Origin: Chloroflexota bacterium
GTDB taxonomy: Bacteria > Chloroflexota > Dehalococcoidia > Lucifugimonadales > Lucifugimonadaceae
Direction of reading: 5' to 3'
Assembly: GCA_013204555.1 (NCBI GenBank)
Contig: JABMNO010000024.1
Span: 14,397-46,396 of the forward strand
Length of the DNA: 32,000 bases
Shown here: in pieces, positions 4,396 to 21,372 of the stretch
How positions within the stretch are numbered: position 1 is the first letter of the stretch
Layout of the letters: each line of letters begins with the position of its first letter
Notes under the pieces: generated by a model
The model's input: the letters and a program-made list of their open reading frames with translations, nothing else
Databases searched by the model: none
What the model was told of the DNA's origin: nothing
Position numbers and translations under genes: made by a program

Positions 4396-4570
4396 ATAGT
4401 CGAGGCTCCATGTCCTCCGAAACTCCGACGGCACGCCCAATCGTCGGAGTTTCGCCTAATGCGCTCACTGTGGACTCATCGTCTACAATCCTCCCGCACC
4501 AGCAGACGCCTTGCCCACCCATCCGGCAGGGGTAGTCCATGCAACTACCTTCCTGGAAAAGAGGATACTC

Positions 4571-5995
4571 ATGACCACTCGCGGGACTGACGAACGCCCG
4601 AATTTCCTGATCATCATGTCCGACGAACACGGAGCCAAGTTCAGCGGCACGTACGGACACCCCCTGGTTAGCACGCCGAATATGGACCGCCTAGCGGCGA
4701 TGGGTGTGACGTTTGATAACGGCTACTGCAACTCCCCGTTGTGCGTCCCATCCCGAGCGTCATTCATGACCGGCCAGTACGTCAGCAACACAAAGACCTA
4801 TGACAACTCGACCCCGATGCGCGTCGATGCCGTCACGTGGCCGTATCTGTTGCGATCACAAGGCTACGACGCTGTTCTCGACGGGAAGATGCACCTCATT
4901 GGCCCTGACGCGCTGCATGGATTCGACCGTCAACTCGCTCACGATCCACATGCGGAGGAACTCGTACACGAGCATTATCAGTGGAAAGACGGATGTCCCA
5001 CATCAGACGCGCCATGGCCGTCGGTTTTTGAGGCAGGTCCCGGTACCACGCCCATGATCGAAGCTGACGACGAGATGGAGAAGGCCGCGCTCGAATACCT
5101 TCAGCAACCAGGCCGACACGATAATCCCTGGGCCATCTGTGTAGGTTTCATCGCTCCGCACTTCCCCTTCGTGGTCCCGGAGCCTTATTTCTCGAAATAC
5201 TATCCAGACAGCGTGGACATGCCAGATATCCCGGATGGACATCTCGACAATCTGCCCCCGGCGGCGAAACGCCTTGGAGGTATGTTTGGCGTCAACCATA
5301 AGTACACCGACGACGAGGTTAAACGGGCCCGCGCCGCGTACTATGGCCTTGTCGAATGGATGGACGCGAAGATCGGCCGTTTACTGGATTCGCTGGAGGA
5401 AAATGGACTCGCCGAAAACACCGTAATCATCTACACCTCTGATCACGGCGACGCCCTGGGTGAGCACGGTCTCTGGCGCAAAATGAGTATGTTTGAGGCG
5501 TCATCGCACATACCCATTCAGATCGCCTGGCCCGGACACCTTCCCGCAGGCAAACGGGTATCGCAGCCGATGTCTAACGTGGACGTCACTGCCACTATCG
5601 CAGACATCGCCGGATTCGATCCTGCTGAATGGCAGATGGACGGCGATAGTCTCGTGCCGTTGATGAACGGCGATGAGGCATCCTGGAAGAATTTCGCCCT
5701 CGTAGAACATCTCGCGCACGGAACCGAACGCGCACTAGTGATGGTTCGGCGCGGAAGCTGGAAACTAACCTACGGCCACGGCGACCCGCCAGAGTTGGAA
5801 CTCTACGATCTAGATACCGACCCCGGAGAGTTCAACAATCTGGCAAACGACCCTGCCCACGCCGCAAAGCAGCAGGAGATGATGGACCTCCTGATGCAGG
5901 AGTGGGGAGACCCCGCGGAGATCCAGAGTCAGGTCTTGCAAAGCCAGACGGATAGAGGCGTAATTCGTGCCGTGGACGGCGGAAAGATTTTCTAA
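4571..5995 (+). CDS. Cys-type sulfatase, choline-sulfatase (BetC)-like
   Basis: ATG 4571 is preceded by AAGAGGA. The protein starts MTTRGTDERPNFLIIMSDEHG (metal-binding SDxH). It has NSPLCVPSRASFMTGQ (C-x-P-S-R formylglycine motif, Cys type), TSDHGD and a C-terminal LYDLDTDPGEFNNLA string, all as in choline-sulfatase-like enzymes. Confidence 0.9.
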   Translation: MTTRGTDERPNFLIIMSDEHGAKFSGTYGHPLVSTPNMDRLAAMGVTFDNGYCNSPLCVPSRASFMTGQYVSNTKTYDNSTPMRVDAVTWPYLLRSQGYDAVLDGKMHLIGPDALHGFDRQLAHDPHAEELVHEHYQWKDGCPTSDAPWPSVFEAGPGTTPMIEADDEMEKAALEYLQQPGRHDNPWAICVGFIAPHFPFVVPEPYFSKYYPDSVDMPDIPDGHLDNLPPAAKRLGGMFGVNHKYTDDEVKRARAAYYGLVEWMDAKIGRLLDSLEENGLAENTVIIYTSDHGDALGEHGLWRKMSMFEASSHIPIQIAWPGHLPAGKRVSQPMSNVDVTATIADIAGFDPAEWQMDGDSLVPLMNGDEASWKNFALVEHLAHGTERALVMVRRGSWKLTYGHGDPPELELYDLDTDPGEFNNLANDPAHAAKQQEMMDLLMQEWGDPAEIQSQVLQSQTDRGVIRAVDGGKIF

Positions 5996-8562: not shown

Positions 8563-8635
8563 GAATTAACTCCGTGTTGTCCGGTTGTCATGTTGGCGTC
8601 GTTGCTCTATTACGTCCGTGATCAGCGAGTGAGTC

Positions 8636-9574
8636 TCAACCGCCGATCTGTACTTCAAGACCGGCAGTTTTGCAGATGCCGGCCAGTACGTCCATGTATT
8701 CCTCCTCCTGGGTCGTCCGTCCACCAAGCGTATATGGGGTACCAATCCAATCGTATTTCGCCCCCGCTGCACTGTTGTACGGGAGTAACGCGATTCGCTT
8801 TACCCCACTGTCTGCGACCAGTCGCGAAGTACTGCGAATTTGATCAGCTGAGTCGTTTATGCCCGGAATGCAGGGCACGCGGACCTGGATATCGTGGCCT
8901 TCGGAAGCCAGCATTCGCAGGTTAGTGATAATCAATTCGTTTGGCACTCCCGCATATTTCATGTGGGCGGCAGAGTCCACCAGCTTCATGTCAAACAGAA
9001 GCAGATCGGCAACGCTAGCGAGCCGCTGCATCACTTCGGTGCGAGCGTAACCGGTGGTTTCCATCGCCGTGTGAATACCGCGCATCTGGCAGGCCAGCAG
9101 GAAATTGAAAGAAAAATCGGGCTGTCTGGCGGGTTCGCCACCGCTGAGAGTTACGCCTCCGCCGGAACTGATGAAAAACGGCGCATCCGCTTCTACCTGT
9201 TGCACCATCTCGCCCACAGATGTTGCGATACCGCCAATCCGGAGAGCTCCGGGATAACAGACCTCAACGCATTTGCCACAGACGGTGCATGCATCCCGAT
9301 CAAGTACGGCCACATGTCGTTCCCCGTTCATCCCCATAGACAGGGCATGCTCCGGGCACGTTTCGGGACAAAGACCGCATGCATCACATCGCTCGTCCTG
9401 GTACAGCAGTTCTGGATGGGCCCCACGGGACTCCGGGGAGTGGCACCAGACGCACGCAAGAGGGCAACCCTTCAGGAACACAGTCGTGCGAATACCGGGC
9501 CCATCATGCGACGCGAAACGGTCGACATCGAGGACAAGACCCTCAATACTCATATCCGGGCTTAGCCCCAACAT
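8636..9574 (-). CDS. Glycyl-radical enzyme activating protein (radical SAM)
   Basis: Contains FASHDGPGIRTTVFLKGCPLACVWCHSPES (CxxxCxxC radical-SAM cluster). Two ferredoxin-like motifs follow (CDACGLCPETCP, CTVCGKCVEVCY), then TLSGGEP, as in activases of PFL2-type GREs. Start is uncertain: ATG 9574 has AGGAAA 8 nt upstream; ATG 9553 and 9595 are alternatives. Confidence 0.9.
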   Translation of the reverse strand: MLGLSPDMSIEGLVLDVDRFASHDGPGIRTTVFLKGCPLACVWCHSPESRGAHPELLYQDERCDACGLCPETCPEHALSMGMNGERHVAVLDRDACTVCGKCVEVCYPGALRIGGIATSVGEMVQQVEADAPFFISSGGGVTLSGGEPARQPDFSFNFLLACQMRGIHTAMETTGYARTEVMQRLASVADLLLFDMKLVDSAAHMKYAGVPNELIITNLRMLASEGHDIQVRVPCIPGINDSADQIRSTSRLVADSGVKRIALLPYNSAAGAKYDWIGTPYTLGGRTTQEEEYMDVLAGICKTAGLEVQIGG

Positions 9575-9932
9575 TGCTGTATTTTCCTGTGACATCTGTC
9601 TCTGGCTCTGAGCGGATCGGGGTAATGGATCGCACTTATGACCGCAAGGGTATATCAGAGCGGAAGTCCCTGACGGATCACGAGCGGCCATCACTCCCAA
9701 CTCCGCGCCAGCCTGATCGTCGTCAGAATCGCGGGGATTTCATGTAAGCCCACACACAACGCCGCCCGAGGTCCGATTCCTATCGGGCCATCAGGTTTTC
9801 TGCCACACAGGAGTCGCAACGAGGTGTCTGTCCGACCACGATTGTGGACCGCAAAAGCACCGTGTGACGACGCCAAACATCGGCCACGTCGCGAGCATTA
9901 GCGTCTGCCCTGGATCAGAAATCGCGGGCGCC

Positions 9933-12900
9933 TTAGTTCCAATTTTGTGGCGACACAGCGCCAAAGTTAGACGCTGCGGCTGAAATGTCCAGGATGTCCA
10001 CGTTCCCACTACCGTTGAGATCAACAATGCGCCCTTGCGCGTCGAGTCGGTCCGTGAGACCGGTGACGCCAAACGACGCGGCGATTGCGCTGATGTCACG
10101 GATACTGACCACTCCATCGCTATCAACGAGGCCCGAACGCAACTCGAACGTGGACACCGTTGCGGTGGATTTCGCCACCGTAATTGAAGATGCTCGCACT
10201 CCTTGTACAAAACCAGGTGCCTGTACTGTCACCGAGTAAGCGCCGTCCGATAGTCCGGTGATCGCAAACGTCCCATCGGCATTTACCGCAACAGTGGTGC
10301 TCGTAGAGCCGTTATCGGCGGTCGCCGTCGGCCCTATTGACGTGATTGCCCCCTGATCCTTCACGCCCTGAAGCGAGATTTGTCCCGTGATGGTGGACGC
10401 GAGAATTCTGACGATGCTGCTGCGGTTGGCCGCCCCATCGTTGGCGAAGGCATGGACAGTAGATGACGCCCGAAGGTCCACGGTGAATGGGGCTGCGTAC
10501 GGGATGAAGCTGGCACCGTCCGTGGAGTAGTACAAACTCGCCACGCCTGACACGCTGTCAGTGGCTGCCAGAGTTACCTGAGTCAGTGCGCCCGTAGAAG
10601 TCGACGTCAGGGTAATCACCGGGCCTTCGGTGTCTGCCGCTGCCGCTCCAGTGAGGATCGCTGTTGGCGTGCTCGTGGCGTCGAATGAACCATTACCATC
10701 GCTATCGTAGGACAGATCCCTGGCCCCGGCGAGAGTGAATGAAAGTCGGGTGGCAGCGTTGTCAGGCAGGTTCACGTCCTGGTAGCGAATTGCCTCATCT
10801 GGCGTGCTACCGTCTCCAGTTAGAACCTCAATGAAGATTGGGCCAGTAGCGTTGAAGTCCAGATCGAATGTTTCGCTTGATTCCGCTGGCAGCAACACCA
10901 TGTATGCGTTGTCGCCAATAGCAAGAACGTCCACACCCGGGATTTTCTGGGCCAACACCTCGTTTGCCAGTGCAGTGGATCCGCCACTTCCAGAGAGAAC
11001 CGTAACGGTTGACGGTCCAATAATTTTTACGTAGCGATAGGCCGTTATATGCGAACTATCTATTGCAGGCTGTTGGGTTTCCGATAGCGCTGCTGCCGAA
11101 CTGCCAAATGGCTCAGTGCTGCCAAATCCGCTTCCTCCGGCCAAGAAATCAAGGAGTGCAGTGACCATCTCCGGGTTCCTCATCATGTGGTTATGGTCTA
11201 CAAGATCGTCGTTTGCATTGAAGAGCGGTCGCAATGTGGCGCCAGGAAAGTTGTAATCCGCGTTTCCTATCCTCTCAGCGCTAAGCCGGGGTACCGTTCC
11301 ATCGCCTATGGTAAATCCGGGATCAGCCACAAGCTGCTCACTACATGCGTAGTTGGAAATCAGGCACACCGTTTCCATTTTCATGGTGAAACCCTCAATG
11401 GTATTCGCCGCAGATTGCACTCCCAGTAGATGAAAAAACTCAATCCCTGAAGTGTCCGTCCGCCAGTCGTCCTGCTCTAGCGAGTGGAAGGTCTTTGCTG
11501 TTGTTCCAGGGAAGAATCCATTTCGGCCGTACCGAATGTCGGCAAGATCGTAGAGCTCCTGGCCGGAGAACGCATCGATTGTCACGCCGTTCCCGTCCAA
11601 ATCGACGCCGAACTCCTCGATTACCGGAGGGCCTCCAAGGTCGAAATAATCCTGGGACGGCAATAATTGATGCACAGCGTCAAACGACCCGAGAACGTCT
11701 TTCAGGACAGCCTTGACCGGCGGCACGTGCTTGATCTCCGGAACAAACTCCCCTGTCTCCAGTACGAAGGCTAACTTTGGAGCGCCGAGCCACGGCGCGG
11801 CAATTGATACCCAGCGGTCGATGTGATGGTCGGACATATGATCCAGGACATACCGTCGGCCAATGAGACCGCCCATGCTGTGGGTGACCAGATTGAAATC
11901 ACTATCAGGATAAATCTGCCGCATGCAGTCAACGTAGTCGTCCAACTTTGCGGCATTCACAGCATTATCCAGCCGCCAGTCGTACGGAAACAAGAACAGA
12001 TTTGGCTTCTTACCGTCGGCATCCTTCTGATCAACATCGCAACCAGATGAGGTCAGCCGGGAAGAGTCGAAGGTTGAGTAGTCTCCAACCGGCCCGGTAT
12101 TGAGGTCGTACTCTCGGAATCCTCTGGTTGCGAGACCTTCAAGGAATCCGCCGTAGACGTCGTCTTCATGCGATGTACCTTCCAATACCGCGCGCAGAAC
12201 GTCTGGAGCCACAATATCGTCGCCCTGACCGCCATCGAACAGGGTCATATCGTTAAGGTCAAACAGGAAGTTTGCCCCAGCTGGCATCCACAAAACATCA
12301 CTTCCGCCCAGGCCATTTCTGTCCATAAGCACACTCCCCGCAACACCAGGCACGAAGACCACCGGGAGCGGAGGTTCTGGCGGGACAACGGAGAACACCC
12401 AAGCGGCGCCCCATTCTGTTGGAGACTGGGTTAGGTCGATGCGACGGGTGGCGGTCACAACAGCGGTACTGCTGCTGATCGAAGCCGCCGATCCGAACCG
12501 GTCGCCCTCATTGCCGCCTGAAGGCGTGAGTCGCGCTTGGGGGCTCCATGAATCTCCGCTACGACCGAACACATATGCTGATCCCGTGCGAAGCGTACTG
12601 CCCACGTGGTCGGACTGAAAACCCACTACCGCCATGTCCCCGCTAACAGAAACAGAAGTGGCGAAGCCATCAAGCGCTTCGCCATCCGTGGCTGTCAAGT
12701 GAGCCTGCTGACTCCAGTCGGTACCGCTTCGGGCAAATACATAGGCCGATCCCTGGTTAACGTTGCTGCCTATATCGTCGCGAGGATCACCCACCACAAT
12801 CGTGTCTCCGTCCAAGGAGACAGAGTTGCCAAATTCGTCGAATTCTTCGCCATCCGCGGCTATCAAGTGAGCCTGCTGGCTCCAGACACCCTCACTACGC

Positions 12901-13646
12901 AGAAATACATAGGCTGATCCTTGGTAGGCGTTCGTCCCAACCGCGTCGTTTGGCACGCCGACGACTATCGTTTCACCGCTGATAGCGATGGCCGAGCCGA
13001 ATTCATCATTCGCTGCGCCATCCGAAGCCACGATCTTGGCCTGTTGGGTCCAGGAGGCCCCGTTCCCCGCGAAAACGTATACCGACCCCTGAGTGCTATT
13101 ACCACCCACAGTCGTCCACTTGGCGCCTACCGCGAGCGTATCCCCACTTATCGATACGCTCCCGCCGAAACCTGCGCCATCGGCGGCAATGAGTTTGGCC
13201 TGTTGGCTCCAGCTAGTCCCGCTGCGCACGAATACGTAGGCTGCCTCTTTGCCAGTAGCGCCCACCACAACCCTGTCTCCGCTTATGGAAACAGATCCAC
13301 CGAAATTGTCGTTCTCGCCATCATCAGCAGCGAGAACTGCCTGCTGGCTCCAGGTAGCCCCGCTGCGCACGAATACATGTACCAATCCTGTACGGATGCC
13401 ATCCACTTTCGTTGCGGGAGCGCCAACAACCAGGGTATCGCCATCAATCGCGGTTGCCGTTCCAAAACCACCTCCAAAAAGAGTGTCGTTCGGTACCGGA
13501 TCAAGTTTCACTAATTCAGTGAGATCGGGGATACTCGCCTGCACCCGAGGAGTTACGACCAGATGAGAAGCCCTCCCAACACCCCAGATAATGACTATCA
13601 GTAGCAACACGGTCAAAATTCTGGTGGAGGTGTTCCGGTGTGTCAT
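9933..13646 (-). CDS. Large secreted/anchored multidomain protein: 7x FG-GAP propeller + LCAT/PGAP1-like lipase + beta-sandwich modules + C-terminal dockerin-like repeat
   Basis: ATG 13646 gives MTHRNTSTRILTVLLLIVIIWGVG (signal/anchor); ATG 13766 is an alternative. Seven blades follow of the form FGxSVSISGDTxVVGA...GSAYVF.RSG..WSQQA.L.A.DG. The alpha/beta lipase region has VVFVPGVAGS, FPYDWRLD and the VTHSMGG nucleophile elbow. Next come SLYYSTDGASFIPYAAPFTV (chitobiase/Fn3-associated-type module) and DGTFAITGLSDGAYSVTVQAPGFV (CarboxypepD-reg-like). The C-terminus has a dockerin-like pair, DSDGVVSIRDISAIAASFG / DLNGSGNVDILDISAAASNFG. Confidence 0.85.
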   Translation of the reverse strand: MTHRNTSTRILTVLLLIVIIWGVGRASHLVVTPRVQASIPDLTELVKLDPVPNDTLFGGGFGTATAIDGDTLVVGAPATKVDGIRTGLVHVFVRSGATWSQQAVLAADDGENDNFGGSVSISGDRVVVGATGKEAAYVFVRSGTSWSQQAKLIAADGAGFGGSVSISGDTLAVGAKWTTVGGNSTQGSVYVFAGNGASWTQQAKIVASDGAANDEFGSAIAISGETIVVGVPNDAVGTNAYQGSAYVFLRSEGVWSQQAHLIAADGEEFDEFGNSVSLDGDTIVVGDPRDDIGSNVNQGSAYVFARSGTDWSQQAHLTATDGEALDGFATSVSVSGDMAVVGFQSDHVGSTLRTGSAYVFGRSGDSWSPQARLTPSGGNEGDRFGSAASISSSTAVVTATRRIDLTQSPTEWGAAWVFSVVPPEPPLPVVFVPGVAGSVLMDRNGLGGSDVLWMPAGANFLFDLNDMTLFDGGQGDDIVAPDVLRAVLEGTSHEDDVYGGFLEGLATRGFREYDLNTGPVGDYSTFDSSRLTSSGCDVDQKDADGKKPNLFLFPYDWRLDNAVNAAKLDDYVDCMRQIYPDSDFNLVTHSMGGLIGRRYVLDHMSDHHIDRWVSIAAPWLGAPKLAFVLETGEFVPEIKHVPPVKAVLKDVLGSFDAVHQLLPSQDYFDLGGPPVIEEFGVDLDGNGVTIDAFSGQELYDLADIRYGRNGFFPGTTAKTFHSLEQDDWRTDTSGIEFFHLLGVQSAANTIEGFTMKMETVCLISNYACSEQLVADPGFTIGDGTVPRLSAERIGNADYNFPGATLRPLFNANDDLVDHNHMMRNPEMVTALLDFLAGGSGFGSTEPFGSSAAALSETQQPAIDSSHITAYRYVKIIGPSTVTVLSGSGGSTALANEVLAQKIPGVDVLAIGDNAYMVLLPAESSETFDLDFNATGPIFIEVLTGDGSTPDEAIRYQDVNLPDNAATRLSFTLAGARDLSYDSDGNGSFDATSTPTAILTGAAAADTEGPVITLTSTSTGALTQVTLAATDSVSGVASLYYSTDGASFIPYAAPFTVDLRASSTVHAFANDGAANRSSIVRILASTITGQISLQGVKDQGAITSIGPTATADNGSTSTTVAVNADGTFAITGLSDGAYSVTVQAPGFVQGVRASSITVAKSTATVSTFELRSGLVDSDGVVSIRDISAIAASFGVTGLTDRLDAQGRIVDLNGSGNVDILDISAAASNFGAVSPQNWN
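12387..13466 (-). repeat. Seven tandem coding repeats (~135-168 bp each) encoding FG-GAP-like propeller blades
   Basis: The repeat units of 54/45/56/56/56/56/37 aa can be aligned by eye. They also generate the cluster of spurious plus-strand ORFs at 12606-13566. Confidence 0.8.
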
Positions 13647-14002
13647 GAATTCCGTATCCGTAATAAGTGACGAATTTGGCGGGGCGTCGATATTGGAGCA
13701 AGCCGTAGAGTTTGGTGGGTCCGGGAAGACACAGTCAACCAGAACATTTCCAGAGTTGACCAGCATCTCCGTAACTCAGAAAGCGGGCAGTATATACGCT
13801 CTGTCCTGATGTCCGATTCCGTTTGCTCCGTGAAGGTATCTGGGCCATCGGATCACGAGCGTCTAAGGGTTCGGCGGCGAAAGATGAGATTCTCACGTCG
13901 TTCGCTGAGCCTCACTCCTCAGAACGACGGAGGAGCGTGAGGATCTTTCCCCCAGCATCAGACGTCCGCACGATTTGCTAAAAAAGCAGCAGCGCGCGCC
14001 CG

Positions 14003-14686
14003 CTACCGCCCCGCTTCGACCTGTTCTTTCTGCCAACTGTAGTCAACATCCCCGGCGTAGAACTTGTCCGGGTTCTCGATGGCCCAGAGCTGCTTTCGCA
14101 TGTTCCAGTTCTGGGGATCCAGGACAATGCCATCTCTCCAGATCTGACTAGCTCCGTCTATGTCACCTGATCGGAAGAGGCTAAGACCGCGCTCGAAATG
14201 ATCCGACACGGGCGCATCAGCGGCCTTTGAACCGTCTGGCGATACGTTGCCACTTTCTGCGAACGCTGTGACCAGCTGAGCCATATCGTCCTTCTTGACG
14301 TTGAATCCACCGTAGTACTGGAACCTGAGAATGCCGTCCTCATCTATGAACACCCCGTTAGGTATGGCGTTGTAGCCGAACACCCGTGCGAGCGCATTCT
14401 CCTCATCCACGATGGTCGTGAACTCCGCCCCCGCGGCCTCGTGATACGGGCGAGCCTTGTCTGGACCCTGAAGGTCCACCGCAATTGAAAGCAACTCTGT
14501 GCCGTTGACCTTCAGGTCGGAGTACATCTGCTGCCACACGGGCAACTGTTCTCGGCACGCTCACCACGATGCCCAGAAAAACAGGATCAATCGACGCCCC
14601 CGATAGTCCGACAGGCTGACCTCATCACCATCCAGCGATGTCAGCGTGAAGTCTGGAACTACCTCACCGGCGTTGATATTTGGCAT
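14003..14686 (-). CDS. TlpA/ResA-like thiol-disulfide oxidoreductase with in-frame UGA at the catalytic position: candidate selenoprotein (alternative: nonsense-disrupted pseudogene)
   Basis: ATG 14686-14684 is preceded by GGAGG (14700-14696, 9-nt spacer). 41 sense codons follow: [41 protein letters not shown]. Then comes TGA (14563-14561), then [13 protein letters not shown]... in the same frame down to TAG 14005-14003. The TGA occupies the position of the first Cys of the FWASWCxxC redoxin motif. The C-terminal tail reads [18 protein letters not shown]. The ORF track shows only the 180-aa piece starting at an internal TTG. Confidence 0.6.
14528..14548 (-). promoter_or_regulatory. SECIS-like hairpin downstream of the in-frame UGA
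   Basis: mRNA sense is CAGUUGCC-CGUGU-GGCAGCAG: a 6-bp contiguous stem (one G.U pair) plus a closing C-G after an A.A mismatch, with a 5-nt apical loop containing GU. The stem begins 12 nt after the UGA and the loop about 20 nt after it. This is compatible with what I recall of bacterial SECIS geometry. Not validated by folding. Confidence 0.35.
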
Positions 14687-14711
14687 GCTATTAATCCTCC
14701 CCAAGGGGGTT

Positions 14712-15527
14712 CTACGTGCTCAGGAACTTGTTGATGATTGCCGCCACTTCGCCGGGCTTTTCCACGTGGACCATGTGCGCCGCGCCCGGAACGATCTGCG
14801 ACGACGCATTGCTGAGCGCAGCAGCGAAATACTCGGCGTATACAGGCGGACATATTCCGTCGCCTTCGCCCCAAATCAGTAGCGTTGGCTGGGTGACGCG
14901 ATGCAGGCGTTTCGAAAGACCCTTGTTTGGAATGGGCCACAGGTACTTGGCGGCCGTCGACATCGACTTCGCCCGCTCGACGTAGTAGTCGATTATCTCT
15001 TTGCCTTCGTCGGTCTCGGGATCAACTTCCGGCAATTTCGACTGAGGGGCGGTCGCTATTGCCAGCGCCGCTTCAGACTTCTGATCTGTGTACATCGCCT
15101 CCGCGAATTCGGCAGGCGGAACTGTGAAGAAGTCCAGCACGGGATTATCCTGATCCCACAGGCCAAGTGACCCAATCAACGCCACCTTTGAGAAGCGCTC
15201 CGGCTGAACTGCTGCAAGCTCTGCAGCCAGCATGCCGCCCAGCGAGTGGCCAACCACGGGCAGGTCTCGCAACTCCAACTCATCCAACAGATCAAGATAG
15301 AGGTAGATGAGGTCGTGAAAATCCGCTATCTGCTCGGAGCCGGTCGAACTACCGAACCCGGGAATCCACGGCGCGATGACTCTGTGACTGGTCGCAAGCT
15401 CCGCTATGAAATCGCCCTCTTGTTTGCCAGCGATTCCATGCAGATAAAGGAGCGGATCACCGGAGCCTGATTCCGCGACATCGATCTGAAACTGGCCGCC
15501 ATTCACATCCAAGATGCGACTGCTCAT
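14712..15527 (-). CDS. Alpha/beta-fold hydrolase
   Basis: Has HGIAG (oxyanion region), [15 protein letters not shown] (GxSxG nucleophile elbow), GEGDGICP (Asp) and [11 protein letters not shown] (His). Its start overlaps the upstream LLM stop (ATGA at 15524-15527), so the two are probably translationally coupled. Confidence 0.85.
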
Positions 15528-16753
15528 GATGCGACGCCTTCACCTGCACGAGTGACCGCTCCGGACGGCCACCACTTGTCTACGTACTCCGGCTTGTCAT
15601 CCCAGATGTGGCGCAGATTTGGCACTACTTCCGTCGCCGTCCGCCGGATGTTTTCCTTCGCCAGTTCGTGTGGCATTGAGCCAATCTGGTTGAGGAGCAT
15701 CAGGTGTCCAATGTGCAGGTCGCTTACGACCGACTTCAGCTGCTCCGTGACCTGTGAAGGCGTGCCGGCAACTACGTTGCCCTGCTCAATGAGGGTATCC
15801 CACGTCTGGTACTCAGCACCGGCTCGACCAAACGTCGAGGTCTGGGCCATCAGCCCTGCCTTAATGGTGTCGATTGTCCTGTAGCCCGGTGAGTCGGAGA
15901 AGCCGGGATACACGTGCAGCATCTTGTTGAAGAAGTACTCAATGTGCGGCCCGTAGGTCTCTTTGACTTCGGACTCGGAATCGCCGACGCAGACCAGTTG
16001 CAGGAACCCCGCCTGGTACGGATTATCGTTACCGGCCGCGTTCGCGACCTTCCAGAAGCCGTCCATGACTGTCTTACCGCGCTTGAAGCCGCTGTAAGAG
16101 AGGTATGCGTACATGAAATCTTTATCGATACAGTGTTGCCACGTCTCGATTGAGCCGGCGCCCGGCACCCAGACTGGCGGATGCGGATCCTGCATTGGAC
16201 GGGGCCAGATGTTCACGTAGCGAAGTTGTGTGTACTTCCCATCGAACGAGAACATTTCTTTTTCAGTCCACGCCCTGATAATGAGGTCTTCAGCCTCGGC
16301 GTACTTCTCGCGAATGGTCGATGGATTCGCTCCGTATGCGTAGGTAGTGTCCATGCTCGTGCCAACGGGAAACCCGGCCACCAGTCGCCCGCCGCTGATA
16401 CAGTCCAGCATCGCGAACTCCTCAGCCACCCGAATCGGCGGGTCGTAGAGCGCTATTGAGTTGCCCATCACGATGATGGCGACATCTTTGGTCTGTCGCG
16501 CCATCACAGATGCCATGAGGTTTGGCGATGGCATGATGCCGTAGGCGTTCTGGTGGTGCTCGTTGACGCAGATACCGTCATAGCCCATCTCAGCGCCGTA
16601 GACCAACTCATCCAGCGTCTCGTTGTAGTACTGGTTTGCCAATTTCGGGTCGAACAGATGGCTGGGCACATCGACCCAGACGCTCCTGTACTTCTCGCGA
16701 AAATCCTCAGGCAGCCCTCTATACGGGGCCAGATGGAACATCTCCAACTTCAT
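15524..16753 (-). CDS. LLM-class (luciferase-like) flavin-dependent oxidoreductase/monooxygenase
   Basis: AGGAG lies 8 nt upstream of ATG 16753. The MGYDGICVNEHHQNAYG string and overall TIM-barrel LLM pattern are present. 409 aa. Confidence 0.85.
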   Translation of the reverse strand: MKLEMFHLAPYRGLPEDFREKYRSVWVDVPSHLFDPKLANQYYNETLDELVYGAEMGYDGICVNEHHQNAYGIMPSPNLMASVMARQTKDVAIIVMGNSIALYDPPIRVAEEFAMLDCISGGRLVAGFPVGTSMDTTYAYGANPSTIREKYAEAEDLIIRAWTEKEMFSFDGKYTQLRYVNIWPRPMQDPHPPVWVPGAGSIETWQHCIDKDFMYAYLSYSGFKRGKTVMDGFWKVANAAGNDNPYQAGFLQLVCVGDSESEVKETYGPHIEYFFNKMLHVYPGFSDSPGYRTIDTIKAGLMAQTSTFGRAGAEYQTWDTLIEQGNVVAGTPSQVTEQLKSVVSDLHIGHLMLLNQIGSMPHELAKENIRRTATEVVPNLRHIWDDKPEYVDKWWPSGAVTRAGEGVAS

Positions 16754-16853
16754 GGCGTCTACTCCTGCGGCCGATCAGCATATTTCCGATTGCGAGCACG
16801 GTACACTCTGTGCGATTGCATGGAAAGTAAGGGACTGGAAATTGTGAAGGCGA

Positions 16854-17864
16854 TCAGGCCGATTTCACCCTCTTAACGAGCTCGGCAACCTGGTCGTCCG
16901 AGCCAACAGTCGCCGGCAGTGACACCCGACTCGCGTACTGAAATCGGTTGGAAATCGTCTCTGCCATCGTCTCAAACGTTCCGTGGGCGGTGAACTCGCG
17001 GACCACGTCGGGTGATATCTCGTCTGGCATCTGCTCCCACTGCCCGTTCACGGACATCTCGTGCAGCTTCACTCCCAGGTCTTCCAGGCCATGCGCGGCG
17101 AACACGCCGTGATAAGTGCGCGTTGAACCGTAGAACGCCACCCGCGAGCGCAGCGAGTGAAGCTCCTGCTCCACCGCGTCCTCGTCCATGCCCAGTGCCA
17201 TCAGTCCTCCCGCCGATATCTCGATTTCAGATGGATCGCGCCCCTCTGAAATCGCGGCAGCGCGTAGCGTTGGAAGGGTGACATCGTGCACGTATTTCGA
17301 CGTAGTGAATGCGTGCGGCAGCAGGCCATCAGCTACGCGGCCAGCCACTTTAGTCATCTCGGGTCCGACCGCCGCAAGATATACCTTCGGCGTGGGTTCA
17401 TCGTTCGGTCCCATATTAAATGCTGGCGGACAAAGCGTGAAGTTATAGAACTCGCCCTCATATGGCACAAGTTCGCCCGACTGGAACGTTGCCCAGACTG
17501 CACGCATGGTCCGTATGTAATCTTCCATCCGCCGCGCAGGTGACCGCCACATTCCAGTGCTGAACCGCCGCTCGTTATGTCCCTTGACCTGCGAGCCGAG
17601 GCCGATAGAGATCCGTCCGCCGGTCATCCGCTGAAGCTCCCACGCCATCTGCGCCAGCACGAACGGGCTTCGTGGAAAGGCAATGATGACGTGCGTGCTG
17701 ACTTCAATGCTGGTGCTGACGTGCGCTGCAAGCGTCCACCGCATCGTCGCCTCATTCATCACCTCGGAGGTGGCGGCTACATCAAAGCCCAATCGTTCAA
17801 GGCGCTTTACCTGCTCCGGAACCTTCTCAAGAGGACCATCACCAAAATGCCCGACAACTTTCAT
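16854..17864 (-). CDS. LLM-class oxidoreductase, F420-dependent-like subgroup
   Basis: GGAG lies 6 nt upstream of ATG 17864. MKVVGHFG...VKRLERLGFDVAATSEVMNE...RISIGLGSQVKGHNERRFS resembles the F420-dependent LLM subgroup. The cofactor call is inference. Confidence 0.8.
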   Translation of the reverse strand: MKVVGHFGDGPLEKVPEQVKRLERLGFDVAATSEVMNEATMRWTLAAHVSTSIEVSTHVIIAFPRSPFVLAQMAWELQRMTGGRISIGLGSQVKGHNERRFSTGMWRSPARRMEDYIRTMRAVWATFQSGELVPYEGEFYNFTLCPPAFNMGPNDEPTPKVYLAAVGPEMTKVAGRVADGLLPHAFTTSKYVHDVTLPTLRAAAISEGRDPSEIEISAGGLMALGMDEDAVEQELHSLRSRVAFYGSTRTYHGVFAAHGLEDLGVKLHEMSVNGQWEQMPDEISPDVVREFTAHGTFETMAETISNRFQYASRVSLPATVGSDDQVAELVKRVKSA

Positions 17865-17981
17865 CGATTACTCCGATCCCCCGGGTTCACTGCATAGAAC
17901 CCCCAACTTAAGTTCCGCCTGCGGTATATTCGACCCACACACGATTACTCGCAAGTTCAGCATCGGGACTCAAACACAATC

Positions 17982-19031
17982 TTGAAACTTTCCATCCTCG
18001 ATCAATCGCCAATTAGCTCAGGTAAAACGGCGCATGAAGCCGTGCAGGCGACACTCGATCTTGCCGAAGCGGCTGATCGACTTGGCTACACCCGCTACTG
18101 GCTTGCCGAGCACCATAGCTCCGGCACCCTTGCCGACGCCAGCCCGGAAATCCTCCTTGCAGCGGTTGGCGCACACACGAAAAACATCAGGATTGGATCC
18201 GGTGGTGTGATGCTTTCGCACTACAGCCCACTCAAAGTGGCTGAAGTGTTCCGAATGCTGGAGGCGCTCTACCCTGGCCGTATCGACATGGGCCTTGGAC
18301 GGGCGCCCGGATCAGATCAGGTTGCTACGTACGCCCTGCAGCCAGGCCCCAACGCCTACCCGCTTGAGCAGTATCCGCAGCAGGTGTACGACCTGATGCG
18401 CTATCTCAGCGAGACGTTCCCGGACGAGCATCCGTTTAGCAACCTGCGTGCAATGCCCGCCGCACCGGACTGGGCAGTGCCCTGGCTGTTGAGTTCTTCA
18501 ATGGGTAGCTCGCGAATCGCGGCCGAGTTGGGGCTCCCGCTGTCCTTTGCACACTTCATCTCTCAGGATGGGGGACCGGGCTGCGTCAAGTGGTATCGGG
18601 ATAACTTCAAGCCGTCCCGATGGTTCGATGAGCCACGCGTAAACATTGGAATCTCAGCGATCACGGCCGATACCGCAGCGCGAGCCCATGACCTCGCAAC
18701 CTGCCGACACGTAATGCGCTTGATGCGCAACAAAGGGCAGGAGATGAAGGGCATCCCGTCCGTCGAAGCTATCAAGGCGATGAGTTTCAGCGGCGCTGAT
18801 GAAGGATTCATTGAGCAGCAACGCGCGAAGTCGATTGAAGGCGACCCGGAGACGGTCAAAGGACTGATCGAAAACCTCGCTGAGCGGTACGAAACAGACG
18901 ATGTAATCGTCCTGACAATCACCCACGACTACGCAGAACGCCAGCGCTCATACGAGTTGCTGGCCGAGGTGTTCGGTCTGAACGGCGAAGGCCGCGTCGA
19001 CAACTCCATACTGAAGGTAGAAGCAGAATGA
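17982..19031 (+). CDS. LLM-class flavin oxidoreductase, 'luciferase family oxidoreductase group 1' (YhbW-like)
   Basis: (TTG)KLSILDQSPISSGKTAHEAVQATLDLAEAADRLGYTRYWLAEHHSS...GGVMLSHYSPLKVAE is the canonical N-terminus of this subgroup. That supports the TTG start at 17982. Confidence 0.85.
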   Translation: MKLSILDQSPISSGKTAHEAVQATLDLAEAADRLGYTRYWLAEHHSSGTLADASPEILLAAVGAHTKNIRIGSGGVMLSHYSPLKVAEVFRMLEALYPGRIDMGLGRAPGSDQVATYALQPGPNAYPLEQYPQQVYDLMRYLSETFPDEHPFSNLRAMPAAPDWAVPWLLSSSMGSSRIAAELGLPLSFAHFISQDGGPGCVKWYRDNFKPSRWFDEPRVNIGISAITADTAARAHDLATCRHVMRLMRNKGQEMKGIPSVEAIKAMSFSGADEGFIEQQRAKSIEGDPETVKGLIENLAERYETDDVIVLTITHDYAERQRSYELLAEVFGLNGEGRVDNSILKVEAE

Positions 19032-19875: not shown

Positions 19876-21372
19876 ATGAATAGCGACCGACCAAACATAC
19901 TTTTCATCCAGTCAGACCAGCATAGCCCGTTCGTGTCGGGTTGCTACGGCGATGACGTGGTTGAGACGCCGACGCTTGATGCGCTTGCCTCGCGCGGCGT
20001 GATCTTCGATAACGCATACTGCGCCTCGCCAATCTGCGTCCCATCGCGGATGTCGATGCTGTCTGGGCGGATGCCGCATGAGAACGGCGTCTGGACCAAT
20101 AGCCACATCCTGGACTCCGGCATTCCCACCTTCGCCCACTCTCTGGGGGCCGCGGGATACCGGCCGGTGCAGATTGGCCGCATGCACTTTGTTGGTACCG
20201 ACCAGCTTCATGGGTTTGCGGAGCGCTATATAGGTGATCACAGCCCAAATTTCATGGGCGGGAATCCGGTCGATCATGGCGACCTTGAGGGCACCGCAGG
20301 CCCGTCCCGTATCAGCCTGGAGAAGTCTGGACACGGCCAGAGCGCCTATGAGGTTCACGATGAATCTGTCGCCGCGACAGCGGTCGAATATCTCGAAAAA
20401 TACGCTAGCGCGCTTGATTCAGGCGAGACTGAAGAGCCGTTCTGTGTAGCCGTCGGCCTGATGCTCCCTCACCAGCCGTTCGTGGCCCGAAAGGAAGATT
20501 ACGAACACTTCAAAGGACGCGTCCCTCCGCCGGATCATCCCGAGGCAGTCACGGACTCAACCCATCCGTACCTCGCTTGGTGGCGCCGCCACACTGGCAT
20601 TGAGGAGGTGACGGAGGCGGAGATTGAGCGATCACGTACCGCCTACTGGGCACTGGTCAGCAGTCTGGACCGCATGCTGGGTCAGATCATAGAAGTCCTG
20701 GAACGGAATCAATTGCTGGATGACACGCTGATCATCTACACAACCGATCACGGCGAGCAGGTCGGAGAACACGGCCTGTGGTGGAAGCAGACCTTCTACG
20801 AGGAAGCCGCTCGTGTCCCAATGATCGTCTCGTGGCCGGACCAATTGCCACAGGGAATGCGCACTGAACGCGTCGTGAGCCAGATCGATCTCAACGCCAC
20901 GATGCTCGACCTCGTCGACGCGCCCGCGCTGCCCGGATCAAGTGGCCGCACGATGAACGGCATCATCAACGGTCAGGGCGCCGACTCCTGGGACGACACG
21001 ATATTCGTCGAATACTGCACCGAATCCGGTGACCCCTCCCACTCCGATGGTGATCGCGCCTGGCAGAATCGGATGGTCCGGAAAGGCGATTGGAAACTCA
21101 GCTACTACCACGGCTTCGAGCCGCAGCTCTTCAACCTCGGCGACGACCCACATGAGATGACCGATCTCGCCGCCAACCCGGACCACGCAGAAAAGCGTGA
21201 TGAACTAATGAGACTGGTCCTACAGGACTGGGATCCCGAAATAGTCAAAGAACAGATCCAACAATTGACCGCCGAGGGCGAAGTACTGAAATCATGGGCA
21301 AGCGCCGTCAAGCCAGATGACACGCACCGCTGGGACCTGAGACCAGAAATGGACCACGTGGACGGGGGATAG
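19876..21372 (+). CDS. Cys-type sulfatase, choline-sulfatase-like paralog
   Basis: MNSDRPNILFIQSDQHS, ASPICVPSRMSMLSGR (C-x-P-S-R), TTDHGEQVGEHGLWWK and LFNLGDDPHEMTDLA. Same architecture as the 4571-5995 gene but clearly diverged. Confidence 0.9.
   Translation: MNSDRPNILFIQSDQHSPFVSGCYGDDVVETPTLDALASRGVIFDNAYCASPICVPSRMSMLSGRMPHENGVWTNSHILDSGIPTFAHSLGAAGYRPVQIGRMHFVGTDQLHGFAERYIGDHSPNFMGGNPVDHGDLEGTAGPSRISLEKSGHGQSAYEVHDESVAATAVEYLEKYASALDSGETEEPFCVAVGLMLPHQPFVARKEDYEHFKGRVPPPDHPEAVTDSTHPYLAWWRRHTGIEEVTEAEIERSRTAYWALVSSLDRMLGQIIEVLERNQLLDDTLIIYTTDHGEQVGEHGLWWKQTFYEEAARVPMIVSWPDQLPQGMRTERVVSQIDLNATMLDLVDAPALPGSSGRTMNGIINGQGADSWDDTIFVEYCTESGDPSHSDGDRAWQNRMVRKGDWKLSYYHGFEPQLFNLGDDPHEMTDLAANPDHAEKRDELMRLVLQDWDPEIVKEQIQQLTAEGEVLKSWASAVKPDDTHRWDLRPEMDHVDGG

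What the first reader, a model, noticed from the sequence alone, without database searches (positions are those of the whole stretch)
14003..14686. In-frame UGA at the catalytic-Cys position of a TlpA/ResA-like redoxin: candidate selenoprotein hidden by the ORF track
Seen directly in the sequence:
- The 180-aa ORF in the track begins at an internal TTG and lacks any redox motif.
- Reading the same frame upstream crosses a single TGA (14563-14561). It then continues for 41 sense codons to an ATG (14686) with a textbook GGAGG Shine-Dalgarno 9 nt upstream.
- The restored N-terminus, [35 protein letters not shown]-[UGA]-ACREQLP, is the canonical redoxin lead-in. The UGA sits where the nucleophilic Cys of FWASWCxxC would be.
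- A hairpin with a GU-containing apical loop starts 12 nt after the UGA (14548-14528).
- Other genes in the window terminate with TGA (545-547, 19029-19031, 30297-30299). TGA is therefore a normal stop here, not a reassigned sense codon.
The resulting motif is W-A-S-W-U-A-C, with U-x-C spacing rather than CxxC. From memory, unverified, a ResA-like 'WAxxUGC' selenoprotein family has been catalogued, and this spacing fits it. The gene is the last member of an apparent LLM / LLM / hydrolase operon. Standard annotation would call it a truncated thioredoxin-fold protein or a pseudogene.
Basis: partly seen in the sequence, partly recalled or inferred. Interest (0 to 1): 0.8.

Follow-up and report, generated by a model that had tools for sequence, protein, structure and literature searches.

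The report
Unannotated selenoprotein gene in marine Chloroflexi
The apparent stop codon inside this thioredoxin-like gene almost certainly encodes selenocysteine, so annotation pipelines cut a real 227-residue redox enzyme in two; however, the protein family has been catalogued as a selenoprotein family since 2005-2008.

Summary
On the minus strand, ATG 14686 opens a 227-codon frame with one in-frame TGA (14563-14561), giving [16 protein letters not shown].

The selenoprotein reading is strongly supported:
- The same codon is TGA in 85 of 86 homologous genes from at least 80 Dehalococcoidia/SAR202 species, at 44-93% identity. It is never TAA, TAG or Cys.
- Both sides of the TGA show the same coding-type substitution pattern.
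- More distant homologues carry a real Cys there (W-C-x-C-R).
- The L-P-V/G-W-Q codons form a 5-6 bp hairpin with a conserved loop G 22 nt after the UGA. It shows repeated, independent compensatory changes at synonymous sites.
- TGA ends 8 of 18 other genes in the window.
- An independent assembly carries the identical gene.

The family is not new. It aligns end to end with "Prx-like (UGC-containing)" selenoproteins of Zhang & Gladyshev 2008. Its best NCBIfam hit is NF041054 "ResA-like WAxxUGC", at 150 bits against a cut-off of 300.

I could not look for Sec machinery in the source genome. The LLM/hydrolase "operon" link is conserved only in close relatives.

Verdict: a real, mis-annotated new member of a known kind. 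Interest is modest.

The parts
14003..14686 (-). Complete selenoprotein coding sequence: 227 codons (Met1, Sec42, Cys44) plus the TAG stop at 14005-14003. It comprises an N-terminal TlpA/ResA-like thioredoxin fold and a C-terminal helical (TPR-like) domain that ends in the conserved tail [30 protein letters not shown].
   Evidence: Translation. Pfam AhpC-TSA and Redoxin hits. AlphaFold model of homologue P0026 with pLDDT 91, and Foldseek matches to DsbE/ResA/TlpA structures. End-to-end alignment with a published GOS selenoprotein. An identical gene in two other assemblies.
14561..14563 (-). In-frame UGA, read as selenocysteine-42. It occupies the position of the nucleophilic first Cys of the redox motif.
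   Evidence: TGA in 85 of 86 homologous sequences. Real Cys codons at this column in more distant homologues L091, L092 and L093. TGA is an ordinary stop elsewhere in the window.
14555..14557 (-). TGC codon for Cys44, the presumed resolving cysteine of the U-x-C centre.
   Evidence: Invariant TG[CT] in 78 of 79 aligned relatives (alignment A2). One genome, L076, has a second TGA here.
14530..14546 (-). Bacterial SECIS-type hairpin formed by the codons for (Q)-L-P-V-W-Q-(Q). The 5' arm is 14546-14541 (GUUGCC), the loop is 14540-14536 (CGUGU), and the 3' arm is 14535-14530 (GGCAGC). The loop G at 14539 lies 22 nt after the A of UGA.
   Evidence: RNAalifold finds the 5-bp core unaided. The Leu1:Gln3 pair is CG 64, UA 7, UG 7, with 1 broken. 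The loop-flanking positions covary. On a tree, the two covarying pairs need at least 13 (stem-closing pair) and 22 (loop-flanking pair) state changes. The Leu codon is NTG in 79 of 79 sequences, against 53% G-ending Leu codons elsewhere in the same genes. The layout was compared with the real E. coli fdhF SECIS.
14696..14700 (-). Shine-Dalgarno GGAGG, 9 nt upstream of the ATG at 14686-14684.
   Evidence: Read directly from the sequence. An SD-like motif lies upstream of the first in-frame ATG in 62 of 86 relatives, and that ATG is typically 42-47 codons before the TGA.
13985..14007 (-). Terminator-like GC-rich hairpin followed by a T run, immediately after the stop codon. It is probably the end of the transcription unit.
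   Evidence: Consensus scan. This is a single match, no more than shuffled sequence gives, so it counts as positional support only.

Best explanation
The gene at 14003-14686 (-) encodes a 227-residue selenoprotein of the 'Prx-like (UGC-containing)' / UGC-type TlpA-ResA-like family.

**Recoding step.** During translation, UGA-42 is not read as stop. The hairpin formed 15-31 nt downstream by the L-P-V-W-Q codons acts as a bacterial SECIS. It recruits SelB-GTP-Sec-tRNASec, so selenocysteine is inserted.

**Protein.** The product is a thioredoxin-fold thiol/selenol oxidoreductase. Its active centre, W-U-A-C, sits at the N-terminus of helix alpha-1. Sec42 is the attacking nucleophile and Cys44 the resolving residue. 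Together they form a U-x-C selenenylsulfide, one residue shorter than the classical CxxC. A C-terminal TPR-like helical domain with an almost invariant tail (RKQxWAxENPDKFY...WQKEQ) is probably a partner- or substrate-binding module.

**Localisation.** This short form has no evident signal peptide, so it is probably cytoplasmic.

**What is shown and what is inferred.**
- Shown: conservation of the UGA, the Sec/Cys pair, the hairpin covariation, the fold, and homology to a published selenoprotein family.
- Inferred: actual Sec insertion, the catalytic roles of U42 and C44, the localisation, and the substrate.
For: 1. **Conserved TGA.** It is present in the window and in 84 of 85 related sequences from Dehalococcoidia/SAR202/Chloroflexota genomes and metagenomes, at 44-93% identity. 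It is never TAA, TAG or a Cys codon.
2. **Coding on both sides.** Codon-position divergence is 0.295/0.251/0.559 in the 33 codons upstream and 0.345/0.278/0.548 downstream.
3. **Cys homologues.** More distant homologues have W-C-x-C-R with real TGT/TGC codons.
4. **Hairpin.**
   - RNAalifold predicts the 5-bp stem.
   - Compensatory CTG..CAG to TTG..CAA changes occur; CTG..CAA is never seen.
   - Standard pairing is 87.8% against 80.0% in shuffles (0 of 500 shuffles reach it), and the covariation score is 0.154 against 0.058.
   - The U-A state arises at least 5 times on the tree, and the loop-flanking pair changes state at least 22 times.
   - The Leu codon is NTG in 79 of 79 sequences, against 53% G-ending Leu codons elsewhere in these genes.
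   - Loop position 2 is G in 77 of 78 sequences.
   - This G lies 22 nt after the UGA. That matches the published description of a 6-8 bp stem with a conserved loop G about 20 nt downstream (PMC4605307). It also resembles the real E. coli fdhF element.
5. **TGA is a normal stop.** It ends 8 of 18 other genes in the window.
6. **Not an assembly error.** The gene is identical in a JGI contig and in an independent Logan/SRA assembly.
7. **Fold.** Pfam AhpC-TSA hit. The AlphaFold model has pLDDT 91, and its best PDB matches are DsbE-like 3gl3, ResA and TlpA.
8. **Homology to published selenoproteins.**
   - 36% identity, E = 2e-48, over residues 4-224 with a published GOS 'Prx-like UGC-containing' selenoprotein that shares the C-terminal tail.
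   - The best NCBIfam hit is NF041054, ResA-like WAxxUGC.
9. **Lineage background.**
   - Dehalococcoidia MAGs are among the ten bacteria richest in selenoproteins, with 49 and 46 genes (PMC13326102).
   - SelA and SelB are common in sponge-symbiont bins (PMC5649159).
Against: - No tRNA-Sec, selA, selB or selD was found in the window or in about 1.6 Mb of flanks of related loci. This is expected by chance, but it means the machinery was never shown in any genome that carries this gene.
- The hairpin is short. Four of its five core pairs are fixed by the L-P-W-Q amino acids, and two of three Cys-form genes examined keep a similar stem.
- The region's folding energy is unremarkable (z = -0.38), and no Rfam family matches.
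- About a quarter of sequences have G-G rather than G-U in the loop, and 23 of 79 have A.C or A.A at the covarying loop-flanking positions.
- There is no biochemical evidence of Se incorporation or of enzymatic activity.
Confidence: 0.9

Rival explanations
1. Pseudogene: a TlpA-like gene inactivated by a nonsense mutation (or by a 3-nt deletion that converted W-C-x-x-C into W-TGA-x-C) and now decaying.
For: A single in-frame stop at the active site is what a null mutation would look like. The motif is one residue shorter than the canonical CxxC. One distant relative, P0069/L006, does show a frameshifted C-terminus.
Against: - The same TGA is present in 85 of 86 sequences across about 80 species.
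- There are no additional stops or frameshifts in those sequences, and the third-position-dominated substitution pattern is equal on both sides of the TGA.
- The shorter C-x-C spacing is ancestral to the whole family, including the Cys forms.
Confidence: 0.01
2. Sequencing or assembly error: the true codon is TGC or TGT.
For: A single-base difference separates TGA from TGC/TGT, and metagenome assemblies do contain errors.
Against: The 684-nt gene, including the TGA, is identical in a JGI metagenome contig and in an independent Logan assembly of SRR28106091. TGA also recurs in dozens of independently assembled MAGs, including closed long-read chromosomes.
Confidence: 0.01
3. UGA is recoded, but not as selenocysteine. 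Examples would be near-cognate read-through inserting Trp or Cys, or a lineage-wide reassignment of UGA.
For: Some gene callers translated this codon as Trp (P0026 and P0128 show W at the position). The Sec machinery was not demonstrated in these genomes.
Against: - The W is an artefact of an alternative-code translation. The DNA is TGA, and the locus does not translate to the database protein under table 11.
- TGA terminates 8 of 18 well-supported genes in the window.
- The position is the catalytic Cys column of a redox motif, with Cys in homologues. A SelB-type hairpin with synonymous-site covariation sits at the canonical distance.
- The family is published as a selenoprotein family.
Confidence: 0.05
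4. Two separate products: a 41-aa peptide ending at UGA, and an independently initiated protein of about 180 aa (TTG 14545 or a nearby start) that lacks the redox centre.
For: This is what the ORF track and all public gene calls show.
Against: - The split would cut the thioredoxin fold between strand beta-1 and helix alpha-1.
- The internal start that gene callers choose differs from genome to genome. It falls at V, M or L of VWQQ / MY / MDAQ, with no conserved start or SD.
- The 41 upstream codons stay in frame with the rest and are conserved with it in every genome.
Confidence: 0.03

Closest known systems
'Prx-like (UGC-containing)' selenoproteins of the Global Ocean Sampling selenoproteome (Zhang & Gladyshev 2008, PMC2398784). 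[quoted passage not shown] A single 'Prx-like, UXC' sequence appears in the 2005 Sargasso Sea study (PMC1088965).
   Same: - Same fold family (pfam00578) and same W-A-S-W-U-x-C-R-x-x-L-P-x-W-Q active-site block.
- Same C-terminal tail, [28 protein letters not shown].
- The window protein aligns over residues 4-224 with JCVI_READ_1095901167516 at 36% identity, E = 2e-48.
- Cys homologues exist in both.
   Different: - The window protein has U-A-C rather than U-G-C. Among 78 relatives, x is Ala in 39, Gly in 30 and another residue in 9.
- It is a short form with no N-terminal extension; the GOS example and L090 carry about 80-140 extra N-terminal residues.
- It comes from a SAR202/Dehalococcoidia lineage in which the Sec form is nearly universal.
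NCBIfam NF041054 'WAxxUGC_long', ResA-like WAxxUGC motif-containing protein (equivalog model used by PGAP).
   Same: It is the best NCBIfam hit (E = 9e-44). The redoxin domain matches, including the WAxxU-x-C motif, at profile positions 83-194.
   Different: - The score is 150.2 bits against a curated cut-off of 300.
- Only about a third of the 354-position profile is matched.
- The profile's N-terminal 82 positions are absent from the window protein, and most of the C-terminal half does not align.
- Even a long-form relative with a signal peptide (L090) scores only 152.9 bits.
- The window family is therefore a sibling of this equivalog, not a member.
Canonical extracytoplasmic thiol-disulfide oxidoreductases ResA, TlpA and CcmG/DsbE (PDB 1st9, 1jfu, 2b1k, 3gl3).
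   Same: The thioredoxin-like fold is the same, with TM-scores normalised to the target of 0.84-0.88 for the best hits, DsbE-like 3gl3 and ResA. The hydrophobic F-W-A-S-W lead-in and the C-R-x-E/Q-L-P segment after the motif are also shared.
   Different: - The active site is U-x-C or C-x-C rather than C-x-x-C.
- The nucleophile is Sec instead of Cys.
- No signal peptide or membrane anchor is evident in the short form.
- There is an extra C-terminal TPR-like domain of about 80 residues.
- There is no conserved association with cytochrome-maturation genes.
Bacterial SECIS elements, for example in E. coli fdhF.
   Same: - Both are a hairpin inside the coding sequence, immediately downstream of the UGA.
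- Both have an apical N-G-U-N' segment whose flanking bases are complementary. E. coli has G-GU-C; here the forms are C-GU-G, U-GU-A, G-GU-C and A-GU-U.
- The GU lies at nt 23-24 from the U of UGA in fdhF and at nt 25-26 here.
   Different: - The stem is shorter (5-6 bp) and there is no conserved lower stem.
- The loop is a pentaloop with a trailing U.
- 21 of 78 relatives have G-G instead of G-U.
- No Rfam model matches.
- SelB binding is untested.

Membership tests
Bacterial selenoprotein gene (SelB/SECIS-dependent UGA recoding) | An in-frame UGA is conserved at the same column in orthologues, with an intact reading frame on both sides. | tested here: met
   TGA is present in 85 of 86 sequences. 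Codon-position divergence upstream is 0.295/0.251/0.559 and downstream 0.345/0.278/0.548.
Bacterial selenoprotein gene (SelB/SECIS-dependent UGA recoding) | Homologues carry Cys at the Sec column. | tested here: met
   W-C-x-C-R occurs in P0125, P0126, P0160, P0165, P0182, P0250, P0254 and others. TGT/TGC codons were verified in L091, L092 and L093.
Bacterial selenoprotein gene (SelB/SECIS-dependent UGA recoding) | A SECIS hairpin lies just downstream of the UGA, with a conserved G in the apical loop about 20 nt away. | tested here: met
   The hairpin occupies 14546-14530. The loop G is 22 nt after the UGA and is present in 77 of 78 relatives. The criterion is taken from PMC4605307.
Bacterial selenoprotein gene (SelB/SECIS-dependent UGA recoding) | tRNA-Sec, selA, selB and selD are present in the same genome. 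| not testable with these tools
   None was found in the 32-kb window or in about 1.6 Mb of flanks of related loci. Whole genomes could not be read. The only support is at lineage level, from the literature (PMC13326102; PMC5649159).
Bacterial selenoprotein gene (SelB/SECIS-dependent UGA recoding) | Selenium is physically incorporated at the UGA position. | not testable with these tools
   This requires 75Se labelling or mass spectrometry.
'Prx-like (UGC-containing)' / UGC-type TlpA-like selenoprotein family (GOS 2008; 2026 review) | An AhpC-TSA / TlpA-like thioredoxin fold. | tested here: met
   Pfam PF00578 at 7.9e-22. The AlphaFold model has pLDDT 91, with best PDB matches to DsbE, ResA and TlpA structures.
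'Prx-like (UGC-containing)' / UGC-type TlpA-like selenoprotein family (GOS 2008; 2026 review) | A U-G-C redox motif, with Sec and Cys separated by one residue. | tested here: inconclusive
   The U-x-C spacing is met, but the middle residue is Ala in the window (U-A-C). Among close relatives it is Ala in 39, Gly in 30 and another residue in 9, so the literal 'UGC' is not a strict family feature.
'Prx-like (UGC-containing)' / UGC-type TlpA-like selenoprotein family (GOS 2008; 2026 review) | Full-length sequence homology to a published member. | tested here: met
   BLASTP against JCVI_READ_1095901167516 from Dataset S1 gives 36% identity, E = 2e-48, over residues 4-224, including the Sec column and the C-terminal tail.
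NCBIfam NF041054 WAxxUGC_long (equivalog) | A whole-protein score at or above the curated cut-off of 300 bits. | tested here: not met
   The score is 150.2 bits, and the best stretch covers profile positions 83-194 of 354. Relatives P0026 and L090 score 157.7 and 152.9 bits.
NCBIfam NF041054 WAxxUGC_long (equivalog) | The W-A-x-x-U-G-C motif. | tested here: inconclusive
   The window has W-A-S-W-U-A-C. The pattern is kept except for Gly replaced by Ala.
Canonical TlpA/ResA/CcmG thiol-disulfide oxidoreductases | A C-x-x-C active site. | tested here: not met
   The whole family has U-x-C or C-x-C, one residue shorter.
Canonical TlpA/ResA/CcmG thiol-disulfide oxidoreductases | Extracytoplasmic location, through a signal peptide or membrane anchor. 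| not tested
   No predictor was run. By inspection, the N-terminus [13 protein letters not shown] runs straight into the fold. Long-form relatives such as L090 and P0125 do start with a hydrophobic, signal-like segment.

The most novel reading that the evidence does not exclude
The SAR202 short form may be a functionally distinct cytoplasmic selenoenzyme that is almost obligately Sec-dependent: 85 of 86 sequences carry UGA, and no close Cys orthologue was seen. On this reading, its strained U-x-C selenenylsulfide centre, together with the invariant TPR-like tail, carries out a reaction that classical CxxC TlpA proteins do not. Examples would be a peroxidase or an oxidising/isomerase activity tied to the oxidative, monooxygenase-rich metabolism of these bacteria.

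A corollary is that the conserved peptide Q-L-P-V/G-W-Q is held in place at least partly by the RNA requirement of the SECIS rather than by protein function.

A U-G-U variant with two UGA codons (L076) hints that a diselenide form may also exist.
Probability: 0.2. Interest if true: 0.5.

Novelty: new member of a known kind. Interest (0 to 1): 0.3.

Why it matters
- **Annotation.** The gene is split or truncated in every public record I saw. It appears as a 41-aa fragment plus a 174-180-aa fragment, labelled 'hypothetical protein', or with a spurious Trp at the Sec position. The scan of one genome per species found a relative in 219 genomes; the 80 retrieved are almost all Dehalococcoidia/SAR202/Chloroflexota. 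The curated NCBIfam model does not capture this form, so a sibling model would repair many annotations.
- **Biology.**
  - It adds a near-universal selenoprotein to SAR202, one of the most abundant bacterial groups of the dark ocean. That implies a selenium requirement for the group.
  - It is a clean natural example of a U-x-C / C-x-C centre in a thioredoxin fold, and the biochemistry of that centre is unstudied.
- **Method.** It shows that a SECIS can be recognised from synonymous-site covariation even when it is short and largely dictated by a conserved peptide.

It does not change what is known about selenoprotein families as such.

Tried and rejected
- **Folding energy.** I dropped energy as evidence and used comparative analysis instead.
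- **Rfam.** There was nothing at gathering thresholds for the whole window. At permissive E-values around the site, only noise hits appeared.
- **Sec machinery.**
  - ARAGORN on the window and on 81 related loci found no tRNA-Sec.
  - tblastn with E. coli SelA, SelB and SelD against the window and all flanks found nothing.
- **Other selenoprotein genes.** I looked for other conserved UGA-containing ORFs with a nearby Cys in the window and flanks. Only the target family and off-frame shadow ORFs were found.
- **Conserved operon partners.** The LLM/LLM/hydrolase context is limited to the closest relatives. No neighbour is shared by more than 14 loci, apart from one 48-locus cluster of low-complexity ORFs overlapping the target gene on the opposite strand, which I take to be a shadow ORF.
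- I used the full-length homologue P0026 instead.
- **Apparent Trp at the Sec position.** P0026 seemed to have Trp there. This is a translation artefact, because the DNA has TGA.
- **Moorella SECIS.** I recalled a similar sequence but could not verify it in the library. I do not rely on it; the comparison uses the E. coli fdhF sequence read directly.
Full report
**1. The observation**

The minus strand of 14003-14686 reads [52 protein letters not shown]... and continues to a TAG at 14005-14003.
- The only internal stop is TGA at 14563-14561, 41 codons after ATG 14686.
- GGAGG sits at 14700-14696, 9 nt upstream of the ATG.
- The ORF list shows only the 180-aa TTG-started piece, 14003..14545.
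- With U replaced by C, the protein hits Pfam AhpC-TSA (7.9e-22) and Redoxin (1.2e-16) from residue 6 onward. The 41 'upstream' codons are therefore the first strand and active-site approach of the fold.
- TGA is the stop of 8 of 18 Pfam-supported genes in the window, so it has not been reassigned.
- The gene is identical, TGA included, in a JGI metagenome contig and in an independent Logan assembly of SRR28106091. An assembly error is therefore excluded.

**2. Comparative evidence for recoding**

- A protein search returned more than 60 clusters at 46-93% identity. Nearly all are 174-180 aa long and cover only the last 77% of the query, so they are truncated at the same point.
- One apparently full-length hit, P0026, shows Trp at the critical column. 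Its DNA has TGA, and it does not translate to the database protein under table 11. The Trp is an artefact of an alternative genetic code.
- A scan of one genome per species found 219 genomes with a relative. The best 80 are almost all labelled Dehalococcoidia, SAR202 or Chloroflexota, and several are closed chromosomes.
- Across these loci, earlier loci and the window, the codon after W-A-S-W is TGA in 85 of 86 sequences. It is never TAA, TAG, TGC or TGT.
  - The exception is a distant metagenome sequence with GAG (Glu) and a frameshifted C-terminus.
  - One further genome, L076, has TGA at both the Sec and the Cys positions, giving W-TGA-GGG-TGA.
- The 33 codons upstream of the TGA diverge at codon positions 1/2/3 by 0.295/0.251/0.559. 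The 33 downstream diverge by 0.345/0.278/0.548. Both sides are equally coding.
- These data rule out a pseudogene and a two-gene arrangement.

**3. The Sec/Cys pair**

An exhaustive representative search with P0026 reached more distant homologues that span the active site.
- Many carry W-C-x-C-R: P0125, P0126, P0130, P0154, P0160, P0165, P0182, P0193, P0197, P0206, P0243, P0250 and P0254.
- Others are degenerate at the motif (S-x-S, D-x-S, E-x-C, D-x-C).
- For three Cys forms I read the DNA, and the codons are genuine TGT/TGC.
- The UGA therefore aligns with Cys in homologues, which is the classical signature of a selenoprotein.
- The one-residue spacing (C-x-C / U-x-C) is the family's own feature, not a deletion peculiar to this gene.

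**4. The hairpin**

The codons Q-L-P-V/G-W-Q read CAG-CUG-CCN-GUN-UGG-CAG.
- In the window the stem is 14546-14541 paired with 14535-14530, and the loop is CGUGU.
- RNAalifold run on 79 distinct sequences predicts the 5-bp core without guidance.
- Four of the five core pairs are fixed by the amino acids. The test therefore rests on synonymous sites:
  - The closing pair is C-G in 64 sequences, U-A in 7 and U-G in 7, and is broken in 1. CTG..CAA is never seen.
  - The Leu codon is NTG in 79 of 79 sequences, although only 53% of Leu codons elsewhere in the same genes end in G.
  - The two loop-flanking third positions covary. They are C-G in 22, U-A in 15, G-C in 10, A-U in 8 and G-U in 1; the other 23 have A opposite C or A.
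- On a neighbour-joining tree built with the hairpin codons masked, the U-A state of the closing pair needs at least 5 gains or losses, and the flanking pair needs at least 22 state changes. These are repeated events, not one inherited change.
- Shuffle and slide controls agree: 87.8% of cells are paired against 80.0% in shuffles, with 0 of 500 shuffles reaching the observed value.
- Loop position 2 is G in 77 of 78 sequences and lies 22 nt after the UGA. This fits the published description of bacterial SECIS elements: a 6-8 bp stem with a conserved loop G about 20 nt downstream (PMC4605307).
- The layout resembles the E. coli fdhF element, which I read directly from NC_000913.3: GCA-GGUC-UGC, with GU at nt 23-24 against 25-26 here.
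- Caveats:
  - The element is short, and its folding energy is unremarkable.
  - No Rfam model matches.
  - 21 of 78 relatives have G-G rather than G-U in the loop.
  - Two of three Cys-form genes keep a similar stem and one has lost it (CTA).

**5. What the protein is**

- An AlphaFold model of the full-length homologue P0026 is confident (pLDDT 91.1, pTM 0.88).
- Residues 1 to about 150 superpose on DsbE-like 3gl3, on ResA (1st9, 1su9) and on TlpA and CcmG structures. TM-scores normalised to the target are 0.84-0.88 for DsbE-like 3gl3 and ResA, and lower (0.64-0.77) for TlpA and CcmG.
- The Sec column lies at the N-terminus of the first helix, where the attacking Cys of CxxC proteins sits.
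- Residues about 164-233 form a helical, TPR-like domain. It ends in the nearly invariant tail NWxxRKQxWAxENPDKFYxGDVDYxWQKEQ.
- The short form has no obvious signal peptide. Long-form relatives carry a signal-like N-terminus and an extra domain, and they also have the TGA (L090).
- No neighbour gene is conserved across the family.
  - The LLM/LLM/hydrolase context is found only in the nearest relatives.
  - The commonest other neighbours (for example a CopA-like ATPase, in 14 loci) are minority associations, apart from one 48-locus cluster of low-complexity ORFs on the opposite strand overlapping the target gene, which I take to be a shadow ORF.
  - A tRNA-Asp gene lies just downstream in about 20 loci.
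- The inferred mechanism is a selenol/thiol redox cycle between Sec42 and Cys44. The substrate is unknown.
- From memory, and not verified here: C-x-C disulfides are strained and comparatively oxidising. If so, this would suggest a peroxidase-like or oxidant/isomerase role rather than a strongly reducing one.

**6. Comparison with what is known**

- NCBIfam's best hit is NF041054, 'ResA-like WAxxUGC motif-containing protein'. The score is 150 bits against a cut-off of 300, and only profile positions 83-194 of 354 are matched. Relatives do no better. The window protein is a sibling of that equivalog, not a member.
- The literature already lists the family:
  - 'Prx-like protein, UXC', one sequence, in the Sargasso Sea study (PMC1088965);
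  - 'Prx-like (UGC-containing)', pfam00578, with 46 selenoproteins and 855 Cys homologues in GOS (PMC2398784);
- The GOS sequence file contains members with ...MWASWUGCRGQLPGWQ...[30 protein letters not shown].
- The window protein aligns with one of them over residues 4-224 at 36% identity, E = 2e-48. This is the same family.

**7. What remains open**

- I could not test for tRNA-Sec, selA, selB or selD in any genome that carries the gene. None lies in the window or in about 1.6 Mb of flanks, which is what chance predicts.
- Support is at lineage level only.
  - BSepDB lists two Dehalococcoidia MAGs among the ten bacteria richest in selenoproteins (PMC13326102).
  - SelA and SelB are common in sponge-symbiont bins (PMC5649159).
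  - Sec-containing formate dehydrogenases are predicted in other Dehalococcoidia (PMC5736913).
- No other selenoprotein gene was detectable in the window or flanks.

**8. Verdict**

This is a genuine selenoprotein gene that annotation pipelines truncate.
- It is a new, unannotated member, and a short U-A-C form, of a selenoprotein family known since 2005-2008. It is not a new kind of system.
- Interest is 0.3. Its value lies in repairing annotation across SAR202 and in offering a clean natural U-x-C centre for biochemistry.

Noticed in passing
L076:10115-10123 (Dehalococcoidia MAG, contig CBDCXW010000001.1): One relative has TGA at both the Sec and the Cys positions: TGG TGA GGG TGA AGG, giving W-U-G-U-R. 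This is either a double-Sec (diselenide) variant or a sequencing error in that assembly. The downstream hairpin is intact.
   Followed up: partly
L006:256-321 (JGI metagenome 3300041025; protein P0069) and P0070: A distant relative has GAG (Glu) at the Sec column, giving W-E-S-C-R, yet keeps the hairpin (UUGCC-GGUUU-GGCAA). Its C-terminus looks frameshifted. Other distant homologues have Asp or Ser at this column (P0124, P0123, P0153, P0234), which suggests repeated loss of redox activity.
   Followed up: partly
Proteins P0026 and P0128 (database translations); L004:199-909: Public gene calls show Trp at the Sec position because the contig was translated with a genetic code in which TGA means Trp. 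The DNA has TGA. Such entries could mislead alignments into suggesting a Trp variant.
   Followed up: yes
L090:1481-2758 (ENA ERZ27256803): This is a long form of the family. It has a signal-peptide-like N-terminus plus an extra domain of about 130 residues, then SWASW-TGA-GCRNDLPVWQ, a longer TPR linker and the same C-terminal tail. The family therefore appears to have both exported and cytoplasmic Sec forms.
   Followed up: partly
window 6151-9700 (-): A glycyl-radical enzyme (PFL-like plus Gly_radical domains, 803 aa) sits next to its radical-SAM activating enzyme (354 aa). This oxygen-sensitive system lies beside several luciferase-like monooxygenases and sulfatases, which is an unusual mixture for a presumed aerobic SAR202-type genome.
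   Followed up: no
window 9933-13766 (-): The gene immediately downstream of the selenoprotein gene encodes a 1277-aa protein. It has six FG-GAP repeats, an LCAT/alpha-beta-hydrolase segment and a CarboxypepD_reg domain. It is not found next to the selenoprotein gene in the related loci.
   Followed up: no
L022, L026, L029, L030, L034, L035, L037, L040, L046, L048, L049, L056, L061, L080, L083 and others, about 50-200 nt after the gene: A tRNA-Asp(GTC) gene lies directly downstream of the selenoprotein gene in about 20 of the related genomes. It is the most frequent conserved neighbour, and it is absent from the window.
   Followed up: no
L017 and 13 other loci, about 2.5 kb upstream of the gene: A heavy-metal (CopA-like, HMA-domain) P-type ATPase lies upstream on the same strand in 14 loci. 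This may be a hint of a link to copper handling, as is known for TlpA/ScoI, but it is a minority association.
   Followed up: no
window 15524-19031 and 4511-5995, 19876-21372: The window holds three luciferase-like monooxygenase genes and two sulfatase genes. The stop of the LLM gene 15524-16753 overlaps the start of the hydrolase gene 14712-15527 by 4 nt. The gap between the hydrolase gene and the selenoprotein gene is 25 nt. Co-transcription is therefore plausible locally, even though the arrangement is not conserved.
   Followed up: partly
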